Below, one piece after another: positions 26,140 to 26,262 of a stretch of DNA of 64,000 bases; the stretch's first letter is position 1, and each line of letters starts with the position of its first letter. The notes below the pieces were generated by a model. It searched no databases. It worked only from the letters and a program-made list of their open reading frames with translations, and was not told the origin of the DNA. Both the position numbers and the translations under genes were made by a program. The stretch comes from a virus (taxonomy: Duplodnaviria > Heunggongvirae > Uroviricota > Caudoviricetes): IMG/VR virus record IMGVR_UViG_2785510761_000002; one strand, written 5' to 3'.

Positions 26140-26262
26140 CACGGCGGCGCATGTTGGTGGAACGCCTCGGACTCGACCCCGAGGTAGCGGCGGCCGAGGC
26201 CCCGCATTTCTGGATCCGATTAGTGGTCGAATCGCTCGCGTACCGCGGCATCAGCCCGAGTT
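26140..26262 (-). ncRNA. tRNA-like/Y-RNA-like element (about 110 nt, ends ...GTTCCACCA)
   Basis: Terminal pairing GGTG(CG)GAAC / GTTCCACC encloses a T-arm-like CTCGGGGTCGAGTCCGAGG. Does not fold as a canonical tRNA. Confidence 0.3.

What the first reader, a model, noticed from the sequence alone, without database searches (positions are those of the whole stretch)
26140..26262. Second tRNA-like but non-canonical roughly 110-nt element inside the tRNA array
The region between tRNA-Ser(TGA) and tRNA-Ser(GCT) contains a sequence ending ...CCTCGGGGTCGAGTCCGAGGCGTTCCACCA. It has a T-arm-like hairpin and a terminal helix (GGTG..GAAC / GTTCCACC), but a 110-nt body that does not fit a cloverleaf. One reading gives an 8-nt anticodon-like loop.

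A direct repeat, ACCAACATGCG, occurs twice just 3' of it. It may be a second Y-RNA-like or tRNA-like decoy, or a decayed type-II tRNA.
Basis: seen in the sequence. Interest (0 to 1): 0.5.

Follow-up and report, generated by a model that had tools for sequence, protein, structure and literature searches.

The report
Conserved tRNA-shaped RNA, not a tRNA
Between two serine tRNA genes lies a real, roughly 119-base RNA gene that folds like a tRNA with a long variable arm but cannot decode; it matches no catalogued RNA family and may be a helper RNA for the Ro60 protein encoded nearby.

Summary
It lies on the minus strand at about 26271..26153; the finding omitted the 5' strand of the terminal helix.

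It is not a tRNA. ARAGORN finds nothing even at an 80% threshold, and Rfam gives no tRNA, tRNA-Sec, YrlA, tmRNA or ribozyme match at E<=10.

It is also not decaying junk. I found two homologues: a syntenic relative (L026) and a distant one in a different tRNA/tmRNA array (L085). Across the three, four helices hold: 97.5% of cells paired, 10 pairs changed on both sides, 0 of 500 shuffles as good, and slid controls give 0-1. The conserved unpaired blocks are GGUACG, GAAAU, UA, an 8-nt loop GGUCGAGU and CCACCAAC.

The "anticodon" hairpin varies in loop sequence and length, so the RNA does not decode.

The element sits 3.9 kb upstream of a Ro60 (TROVE) gene on the same strand. That array also carries three Y-RNA-like genes, each starting with exactly GGUGCGAAG. 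The element's 5' strand reads GGUGCGGAA.

Best reading: a new family of tRNA-shaped, non-decoding RNA, possibly a Y-RNA-type partner of Ro60. That function is unproven. Only three members are known.

The parts
26260..26271 (-). P1, 5' strand of the terminal helix (GUGGUGCGGAAC). It contains GGUGCGGAA, a near-copy of the Y-RNA 5' motif GGUGCGAAG.
   Evidence: Pairs with 26163-26153. The UGGU/ACCA core is invariant in all three homologues, and in L085 the helix extends to GUUGGU/ACCAAC. The register is ambiguous: either UGGUG/CACCA + CG bulge + GAAC/GUUC, or the RNAalifold version GGUGG/CCACC + U.U + GCG/CGY. Motif comparison.
26234..26259 (-). J1/2, the D-arm-equivalent stretch of 26-28 nt, with invariant GGUACG at 26244-26239. 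No consistently conserved D stem.
   Evidence: Alignments A3 and A4. I looked for a D stem by hand and with RNAalifold. Only weak pairings appeared, and they were not conserved.
26213..26233 (-). P2, the anticodon-arm-like hairpin: 7-bp stem GAUUCGA/UCGGAUC with 7-nt loop CCACUAA.
   Evidence: Five of 7 pairs change on both sides and stay paired. The loop is CCACUAA in the window and CCACCAU in L026. In L085 the arm is extended and ends in a 5-nt loop. There is no U33 and no conserved anticodon.
26206..26212 (-). J2/3, CAGAAAU. GAAAU is invariant in the three homologues.
26187..26205 (-). P3, the variable-arm-like hairpin GCGG-GGC-CUCG-GCC-g-CCGC.
   Evidence: The basal pair changes G-C to C-G, and two inner pairs change G-C to G.U in L026. 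L085 is shortened to GCGG-GAGAG-CCGC. The G.U pairs show that the minus strand is the RNA strand.
26165..26184 (-). P4, the T-arm-like hairpin: 6-bp stem CCUCGG/CCGAGG with invariant 8-nt loop GGUCGAGU (or 7 bp closed by G.U with a 6-nt loop).
   Evidence: Three of 6 pairs change on both sides. The loop is identical in all three copies. RNAalifold recovers the hairpin unaided.
26153..26164 (-). Joint C plus P1 3' strand, G(U/C)UCCACCAAC.
   Evidence: Invariant except one U/C position in the three homologues. It ends in an encoded CCACCA.
26113..26152 (-). 3' tail AUGCGCCGC (identical in L026, not in L085), followed by a window-specific partial re-copy of both terminal strands: GUGCGGAAC at 26142-26134 and CACCAACAUGCG at 26124-26113.
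   Evidence: repeats; conservation. Probably a duplication or recombination scar and not part of the conserved RNA.

Best explanation
The element is a gene for a roughly 119-nt non-coding RNA. It is laid out like a class II (long-variable-arm) tRNA: a bulged terminal helix P1, an unpaired D-like stretch carrying GGUACG, an anticodon-arm-like hairpin P2, a variable-arm-like hairpin P3, and a T-arm-like hairpin P4. It is not a decoder.

It lies on the same strand as the surrounding tRNA, tmRNA and Y-RNA genes. No promoter or terminator of its own was detected by a simple consensus scan. I therefore infer that it is made from the array transcript and trimmed out by the enzymes that process the neighbouring tRNAs. 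Its conserved GG (in GGUACG) and UCGA (in the T-like loop) could form a tRNA-type elbow; this is also inferred.

My most specific functional guess is that it is a Y-RNA-type ligand of the Ro60 protein encoded 3.9 kb downstream. The bulged terminal helix, whose 5' strand reads GGUGCGGAA, would be the Ro60 docking site, and the tRNA-shaped body would be the effector or decoy module.

Rough sub-confidences:
- conserved structured RNA gene that is not a tRNA: 0.85
- acts as a tRNA mimic: 0.6
- binds Ro60: 0.3
For: Shown:
- No tRNA, tRNA-Sec, tmRNA, YrlA or ribozyme model matches, in the window (E<=10) or in the L085 copy. ARAGORN calls nothing at default or 80% threshold. At 60% with introns allowed it gives contradictory calls on both strands.
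- Two homologues exist: L026:6192-6322, in the same position, and L085:1036-1162, in another tRNA/tmRNA array between tRNA-Val and tRNA-Asn.
- Across the three copies, 97.5% of cells are paired and 10 pairs changed on both sides. No shuffle of 500 reaches this, and slid controls give 0-1. RNAalifold finds P2-P4 unaided, and the consensus is the minimum-energy fold of L026.
- G.U pairs fix the strand as that of the array.
- The P2 loop is not conserved.

Context:
- A TROVE/Ro60 ORF lies at 20713-22284(-) with an RNase T-like exonuclease next to it.
- Three Y-like RNAs in the array start with exactly GGUGCGAAG. Two of them match Rfam YrlA weakly (35.6 and 30.8 bits).
- The same 9-mer starts the Y RNAs upstream of rsr in a Nocardioides genome and in other Ro60 mobile-element loci.
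- The element's 5' strand differs from that 9-mer by a 1-nt insertion and its last base (window, L026), or by a 1-nt insertion plus A to G (L085).
- The element meets the locational criterion of Chen et al. 2014: within 4 kb of Ro60 and on the same strand (PMC4201824).
- L085 also carries a GGUGCGAAG stem that encloses a complete, non-permuted tRNA-like unit. Y-type stems fused to tRNA-order bodies therefore occur in these arrays.
Against: - Only three sequences are known, and two are close relatives. The alignment used for the pair counts was fitted to the model.
- P1 shows almost no covariation, and its register is ambiguous.
- The consensus fold is 7-10 kcal/mol above the minimum-energy fold in the window and in L085, and the z-score is unremarkable.
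- Window-L026 sequence identity in the element (74%) is no higher than in many spacers.
- Against Ro60 binding specifically: true Y RNAs keep GGUGCGAAG exactly, even between loci whose Ro60 proteins share about 40% identity, whereas the element deviates, and deviates differently in L085.
- The downstream (G)UUACUUC block of those Y RNAs is absent.
- My model R2 finds no copy in 25 IMG/VR Ro60 loci, L027, L029, three cultured Ro60 phages, two bacterial rsr loci or two megaplasmid arrays.
- The L085 contig ends before any Ro60 gene could be seen.
Confidence: 0.4

Rival explanations
1. A tRNA-shaped RNA with a role that does not involve Ro60. Possibilities include a processing or 'punctuation' module that recruits RNase P or RNase Z within the long array transcript, or a decoy or sponge for host enzymes that target tRNAs (anticodon nucleases, modification enzymes, the CCA-adding enzyme).
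For: It has the same structural evidence as the best explanation. It is absent from nearly all other Ro60 loci, so it is not an obligate Ro60 companion. In L085 it sits in a different place in the array. In an Arthrobacter rsr locus, tRNA-like minihelices directly precede each Y RNA, which suggests that tRNA-like units can serve as processing signals. Phage and plasmid tRNA arrays have been proposed to act as anti-defence systems (abstract of PMC12803027).
Against: Nothing points to a specific target. The invariant non-tRNA features (8-nt T-like loop, 7-nt GAAAU joint, no D stem) make it a poor mimic for enzymes that read canonical tRNA. Real tRNAs on both sides already supply processing sites.
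Confidence: 0.3
2. A dying class II tRNA (serine-type) pseudogene that still looks folded only because it has not had time to decay.
For: It lies between two tRNA-Ser genes in the window and in L026. It has a long variable-arm-like hairpin. Its P2 shares CUAAUCGGA with the anticodon arm of the adjacent tRNA-Ser(GCU). Its sequence identity with L026 is no higher than that of spacers.
Against: Substitutions are concentrated as compensatory pairs, 10 of them. A distant copy in L085 keeps the same four helices and the same non-tRNA joints, in a different array position that is not next to tRNA-Ser. A neutral pseudogene would not keep an altered 8-nt T-like loop identical in three lineages.
Confidence: 0.1
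3. A functional but unorthodox tRNA, such as a selenocysteine-like or allo-tRNA, a suppressor, or a frameshift-reading tRNA with an expanded loop.
For: The helices come in tRNA order, there is a long variable arm, and the 3' end encodes CCACCA. One register gives a 7-bp acceptor, a 5-bp T stem and a discriminator A followed by CCA in the window.
Against: There is no hit to the tRNA or tRNA-Sec models at E<=10, and ARAGORN finds nothing down to 80%. Position 33 is C. The 'anticodon' is ACU in the window and ACC in L026, and L085 has a 5-nt loop on a longer arm. No D stem is conserved. The 7/5 acceptor register breaks down in L026 and L085.
Confidence: 0.03
4. A self-cleaving ribozyme, riboswitch or other cis-acting element of the array transcript.
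For: There are conserved unpaired joints between helices. A type III hammerhead-like sequence sits in the L085 array directly 5' of tRNA-Val (48.2 bits against a gathering score of 48.5), so ribozymes probably do occur in such arrays.
Against: No ribozyme or riboswitch family matches. The CUGAUG in the window is not conserved in L026 or L085. There is no adjacent regulated ORF.
Confidence: 0.07

Closest known systems
YrlA / bacterial and phage Y RNAs (Rfam RF02553; Chen et al. 2014, PMC4201824)
   Same: A small RNA encoded within 4 kb of a Ro60/TROVE gene, on the same strand and inside a mobile-element tRNA cluster. It has a terminal 5'/3' helix with a bulge, a tRNA-like module with a T-arm-like hairpin and a variable-arm-like hairpin, and a 5' strand (GGUGCGGAA) resembling the GGUGCGAAG / GNCGAA / GGUCCGA Ro60 contact motif.
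   Different: The YrlA covariance model does not match. YrlA is circularly permuted (T arm, closed acceptor hairpin, D arm, with the Ro60 stem replacing the anticodon stem), whereas this RNA keeps normal tRNA order and has a closed anticodon-like hairpin. It has no D arm and no YUAC-UUC block. The motif is inexact and is partly base-paired.
Class II tRNAs (tRNA-Ser, tRNA-Leu, bacterial tRNA-Tyr) and tRNA-Sec / allo-tRNAs
   Same: The order of helices, the long variable-arm hairpin, GG in the D region, UCGA in the T-like loop, and the location between two tRNA-Ser genes.
   Different: There is no D stem. P2 has 7 bp (not 5), C33 and a non-conserved loop. The joint before the variable arm is 7 nt. 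The T stem has 6 bp with an 8-nt loop in which G replaces U54. The terminal helix is bulged and longer than 7 bp. All tRNA detectors reject it.
Other tRNA mimics: tmRNA tRNA-like domain, mascRNA-type tRNA-like RNAs, viral tRNA-like structures
   Same: An acceptor/T-arm-like coaxial stack ending in ...CUCCACCA, as at tmRNA 3' ends. It probably depends on tRNA-processing enzymes.
   Different: There is no match to the tmRNA or mascRNA models. It has two extra hairpins and no mRNA-like part. The resemblance to tmRNA 5' GGGCUGAU / GAUUCGAC is seen only in the window and lies in covarying positions, so it is coincidental.

Membership tests
tRNA (RF00005) and tRNA-Sec (RF01852) | Scores at or above the family threshold with the covariance model, or is called by ARAGORN | tested here: not met
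   No match on the element at gathering score or at E<=10 on short stretches. ARAGORN finds nothing at default or 80% threshold. At 60% with introns it gives contradictory calls on both strands.
tRNA (RF00005) and tRNA-Sec (RF01852) | Conserved anticodon loop: 7 nt, U33, anticodon retained among orthologues | tested here: not met
   The loop is CCACUAA in the window and CCACCAU in L026. L085 has a 5-nt loop on an extended arm.
tRNA (RF00005) and tRNA-Sec (RF01852) | D arm, 7-bp acceptor stem, and 5-bp T stem with a 7-nt UUCRANY loop | tested here: not met
   No conserved D stem. The T-like stem has 6 bp with the 8-nt loop GGUCGAGU. The terminal helix is bulged. The 7/5 register fails in L026 and L085.
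YrlA (RF02553) | Match to the YrlA covariance model | tested here: not met
   No YrlA match on the element at E<=10 or on its L085 homologue. Two other sites in the same array do match: 22631-22754 at 35.6 bits and 29484-29538 at 30.8 bits.
YrlA (RF02553) | Permuted tRNA-like module: T arm, closed acceptor hairpin, D arm | tested here: not met
   The element has normal tRNA order and no D arm.
YrlA (RF02553) | GNCGAA(N0-1)G-type motif near the 5' end (here, the local exact form GGUGCGAAG) | tested here: inconclusive
   The window and L026 have GGUGCGGAA(C/U), and L085 has GGUCGCGAGG. Each differs from GGUGCGAAG by a 1-nt insertion plus one substitution, whereas the recognised Y-like RNAs keep it exactly.
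YrlA (RF02553) | Encoded within 4 kb of the Ro60 gene on the same strand (criterion of PMC4201824) | tested here: met
   The element's 3' end is at 26153 and the Ro60 start codon at 22284, both on the minus strand, 3.9 kb apart. The arrangement is the same in L026. It cannot be assessed in L085 because the contig ends.
Y RNA (functional definition) | Physically bound by Ro60 and stabilised by it | not testable with these tools
   Needs immunoprecipitation or a gel-shift assay with the Ro60 encoded at 20713-22284.
Self-cleaving ribozymes and riboswitches in Rfam 15 | Match to any family model | tested here: not met
   Searches returned only noise-level matches, none of them to a tRNA-like, Y-RNA, ribozyme or riboswitch family.

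The most novel reading that the evidence does not exclude
This is the founding example of a new class of Ro60-associated (Y-type) RNA. In it, the Ro60-docking bulged stem is fused directly, as an 'acceptor stem', to a non-permuted body derived from a class II tRNA. This would be an architectural alternative to the permuted YrlA design, carried by tRNA/tmRNA arrays of actinobacterial mobile elements, and used to bring Ro60 (with the adjacent RNase T-like exonuclease) to tRNA-handling machinery or to damaged tRNAs.
Probability: 0.25. Interest if true: 0.6.

Novelty: new variant of a known kind. Interest (0 to 1): 0.45.

Why it matters
tRNA arrays on phages and large plasmids are usually annotated as lists of tRNAs, and the spacers are ignored. 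This 8-kb array also carries a tmRNA, three Y-RNA-like genes and this additional tRNA-shaped RNA, all next to a Ro60 gene and an exonuclease gene. That looks like a compact RNA quality-control or RNA-repair toolkit on a mobile element. If the element binds Ro60, it would show that Y RNAs can be built on an unpermuted tRNA scaffold, and it would provide a small and easily tested system. If it does not, it is still an uncatalogued structured RNA family whose target is probably some tRNA-recognising enzyme. Its rarity (three known copies) limits its general importance.

Tried and rejected
Searches for relatives that found nothing:
- DNA similarity to cultured phages and to plasmids: only tRNA-sized or chance matches.
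- blastn and nhmmer of the element against 25 IMG/VR Ro60 loci.
- Relatives of the neighbouring 319-aa ORF in the viral, metagenome and genome collections. Through the protein database I got only L026, a 1.4-kb contig, and an integrase-associated region without the element (no match with models R1/R2) in Leucobacter sp. HY1910.
- Relatives of an L085 protein in IMG/VR.
- A chimeric six-frame 'protein' query, meant to catch spurious ORFs called over homologues.

Two of my own DNA patterns were mis-spaced, so their null results are void (verified).
- The corrected T-loop/3'-strand pattern (GGTCGAGTCC-N8-CCACCAAC) gave 75 loci in the genome and metagenome collections, of which only L085 is a homologue, and none in IMG/VR. 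The other two pattern loci I read in full, L075 and L081, are ordinary tRNAs.
- The corrected composite pattern (GGTACG..GAAAT..TAC..GGTCGAGT) gave one chance hit in a coding region of IMG/VR.

Ideas considered and dropped:
- Hammerhead: the CUGAUG...GAAA in the window is not conserved.
- tmRNA-like 5' end: seen only in the window.
- A pseudoknot between the T-like loop and ACUCG: not conserved.
- A long-range GGUA/UACC helix: it conflicts with P4.
- An outer helix GUGGUGCG/UGCGCCGC: the tail is not conserved in L085.
- A 7/5 acceptor/T register with an encoded CCA: it fails in L026 and L085.

Full report
**Setting.** The window has about 60% G+C. On its minus strand it carries an array of 22 tRNA genes plus a tmRNA (21 called by ARAGORN, one more only by Rfam), from 30264 down to 22410. 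Directly downstream on the same strand lie a 523-aa TROVE/Ro60 ORF (20713-22284, Pfam E = 2.7e-12) and an RNase T-like exonuclease ORF (20084-20641). The Ro60 protein is 100% identical to a protein annotated in a Leucobacter luti assembly, on a 163-kb contig. Few phage hallmark proteins are recognisable in the window. It has an FtsK/SpoIIIE-like protein, an SNF2-type helicase, a DNA methyltransferase and a peptidase/tape-measure-like protein. Whether the replicon is a phage or a plasmid-like element is therefore open. There is no close DNA relative among cultured phages or PLSDB plasmids.

**The observation.** The element runs from about 26271 to 26153, so the reported range misses the 5' strand of the terminal helix. 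The direct repeat is real: CACCAACATGCG at 26159-26148 and 26124-26113. A second repeat, GTGCGGAAC (26268-26260 and 26142-26134), shows that both terminal strands are re-copied just downstream. That re-copy is absent from the closest relative, so it is probably a scar and not part of the RNA.

**It is not a tRNA.** ARAGORN does not call it. Rfam gives no match at gathering score or at E<=10 on a 471-nt stretch. Relaxed ARAGORN finds nothing at 80% threshold. At 60% with introns allowed it returns contradictory calls on both strands in each homologue. The folding energy is unremarkable (z = -0.97).

**Homologues.** I found only two others.
- The Ro60 protein led to L026, a Logan assembly contig whose Ro60 is 82% identical and whose array is syntenic. 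The element sits at L026:6192-6322, again between tRNA-Ser(GCU) and tRNA-Ser(UGA).
- A covariance model built from these two (R1), run over loci fetched with the pattern GGTCGAGTCC-N8-CCACCAAC, found L085:1036-1162 at 42.4 bits, E about 8e-8. L085 is a 12-kb soil-metagenome contig carrying a different tRNA/tmRNA array. There the element lies between tRNA-Val and tRNA-Asn.
- The other two pattern loci I read in full, L075 and L081, are ordinary tRNAs.
- A second model (R2) found no further copy in 25 IMG/VR Ro60 loci, two more Ro60 contigs, three cultured Ro60 phages (Atuin, VanLee, GiJojo), two actinobacterial rsr loci or two megaplasmid arrays.

**Structure.** The three copies share four helices.

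| Part | Window coordinates (minus strand) | Description |
|---|---|---|
| P1 | 26271-26260 with 26163-26153 | terminal helix |
| P2 | 26233-26213 | 7-bp stem, 7-nt loop |
| P3 | 26205-26187 | variable-arm-like hairpin |
| P4 | 26184-26165 | 6-bp stem, 8-nt loop GGUCGAGU |

- On the model-based alignment, 97.5% of cells are standard pairs and 10 pairs have changes on both sides. None of 500 shuffles reaches these values, and sliding the partners by 1-3 columns gives 0-1 such pairs.
- P2 has five covarying pairs, P4 three, and P3 one plus two G-C to G.U changes. P1 is nearly invariant.
- RNAalifold recovers P2, P3 and P4 unaided. It proposes a shifted P1 register (GGUGG/CCACC, a U.U mismatch, GCG/CGY) that turns the only variable 3'-strand position into a neutral G.U/G-C change. 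I cannot decide between this and the bulged register UGGUG/CACCA + CG + GAAC/GUUC.
- The G.U pairs identify the minus strand as the RNA strand.
- The unpaired joints are conserved: GGUACG, GAAAU, UA, the P4 loop and CCACCAAC.

**Caveats on the structure.**
- There are only three sequences, and two are close relatives.
- The alignment was fitted to the model.
- The consensus is the minimum-energy fold only in L026. It lies 7-10 kcal/mol above it in the window and in L085.
- Plain identity with L026 (74%) is no higher than in tRNAs or many spacers.

The case rests on the compensatory pattern and on the distant L085 copy.

**What kind of RNA it is.** The order of helices is that of a class II tRNA, and P2 in the window even shares CUAAUCGGA with the anticodon arm of the adjacent tRNA-Ser(GCU). 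Every defining tRNA feature that I could test fails:
- there is no conserved D stem;
- P2 has 7 bp, with C at position 33;
- the loop reads CCACUAA in the window and CCACCAU in L026, and L085 has a 5-nt loop on a longer arm;
- a 7-nt joint precedes the variable arm;
- the T-like loop has 8 nt, with G in place of U54.

These departures are themselves conserved. That argues against a decaying pseudogene and against a decoding tRNA. It is a tRNA-shaped, non-decoding RNA.

**Link to Ro60.** The same array contains three Y-RNA-like genes, each beginning with exactly GGUGCGAAG:
- at 22767 (full-length weak YrlA match, 35.6 bits);
- at 29576 (YrlA tRNA-like module, 30.8 bits);
- at 22401, immediately upstream of Ro60.

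The motif is conserved at the orthologous sites in L026. It also appears upstream of Ro60 in several other loci, once inside the L085 array, and at the start of the YrlA and a second Y-type RNA upstream of rsr in a Nocardioides chromosome. In these RNAs the first GG closes an outer stem, and UGCGAA sits in an internal loop. This fits the published description of the GNCGAA/CGAA Ro60-contact motif (PMC4201824; PMC12135203).

The element's 5' strand reads GGUGCGGAA in the window and L026, and GGUCGCGAGG in L085. Each matches GGUGCGAAG at eight of its nine positions, with one inserted base. The element lies 3.9 kb from the Ro60 start on the same strand, which meets the locational criterion of Chen et al. 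This makes a Y-RNA-type role the most specific hypothesis.

It remains weak for four reasons. The true Y RNAs keep the motif exactly while the element does not. The following UUACUUC block is missing. The YrlA model does not match. The element is absent from about 35 other Ro60 loci.

**Verdict.** This is a genuine, conserved, structured RNA gene of a family absent from Rfam 15. It is tRNA-shaped but non-decoding. It is probably released from the array transcript by tRNA-processing enzymes, and it is possibly a Ro60 partner. I rate it a new variant of a known kind (tRNA mimics / Y-like RNAs), of moderate interest, with function unresolved.

Noticed in passing
window 22640-22775, 29470-29585 and 22320-22407 (all minus strand): Three Y-RNA-like genes, each starting with exactly GGUGCGAAG followed by (G)UUACUUC. 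Two contain a YrlA-type permuted tRNA module (Rfam YrlA 35.6 and 30.8 bits, below the gathering score of 69). The third, directly upstream of the Ro60 ORF, is a plain hairpin type, like YrlB. All three are conserved in L026 at 9517, 2908 and 9884.
   Followed up: partly
window 20713-22284 (-) and 20084-20641 (-): A Ro60/TROVE ORF followed by an RNase T-like 3'-5' exonuclease ORF, immediately downstream of the tRNA/tmRNA array. L026 additionally has a HAD/PNKP-like gene inside the array. Together these look like an RNA quality-control or repair module on a mobile element.
   Followed up: partly
window 25963-26044 (-) and its leader 26045-26100 (-): The tRNA-Ser(UGA) is missed by ARAGORN. It scores only 31 bits on the tRNA model, and 42.9 bits on tRNA-Sec (below that family's gathering score of 47). 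The 56 nt in front of it are 86% identical to L026 and contain a conserved hairpin (GCAGCG...CGCUGC).
   Followed up: no
window 26113-26142 (-): Both terminal strands of the element are re-copied just downstream (GUGCGGAAC, 9 nt, CACCAACAUGCG). L026 lacks this. It looks like an internal-deletion copy or a recombination scar.
   Followed up: partly
L085 1266-1320 (-): A type III hammerhead ribozyme match (48.2 bits against a gathering score of 48.5; E = 3e-8), sitting directly 5' of tRNA-Val in a mobile-element tRNA array.
   Followed up: no
L085 about 2590-2717 (-); window 28839-28913 (-): In L085, a Y-type stem (GGUGCGAAG-AGUCCUGCC ... GGCAGGACU) encloses a complete, non-permuted 75-nt 'tRNA-Leu(UAG)'. 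The window and L026 also have a 75-nt tRNA-Leu(UAG) that lacks the long variable arm expected of bacterial leucine tRNAs.
   Followed up: no
L108 3395-3470 and 3745-3820 (+) (Arthrobacter rsr locus): Acceptor/T-arm minihelix elements with one or two extra hairpins directly precede two of the three Y RNAs upstream of rsr. One matches only the termini of the tmRNA model (25.5 bits). They may be processing signals.
   Followed up: no
window 27127-28083 (-): A 319-aa ORF embedded in the tRNA array, with no Pfam or PHROG match. It contains a GNTDRxxN stretch reminiscent of HipA-type kinases (from memory, not tested). Only three relatives turned up among 5.8 billion proteins.
   Followed up: partly
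window 13632-17372 (+), 10733-12814 (+), 38366-40243 (+): An FtsK/SpoIIIE-like 1246-aa protein, an SNF2-type helicase and a DNA methyltransferase. Few phage hallmark proteins are recognisable in 64 kb. The replicon may be a large plasmid-like element with a 'tRNA array unit' and not a phage.
   Followed up: partly
window 23791-23843 (-): A weak match to the mascRNA/menRNA tRNA-like family (21.3 bits, E = 1.9) in a long spacer of the array. Probably noise.
   Followed up: no
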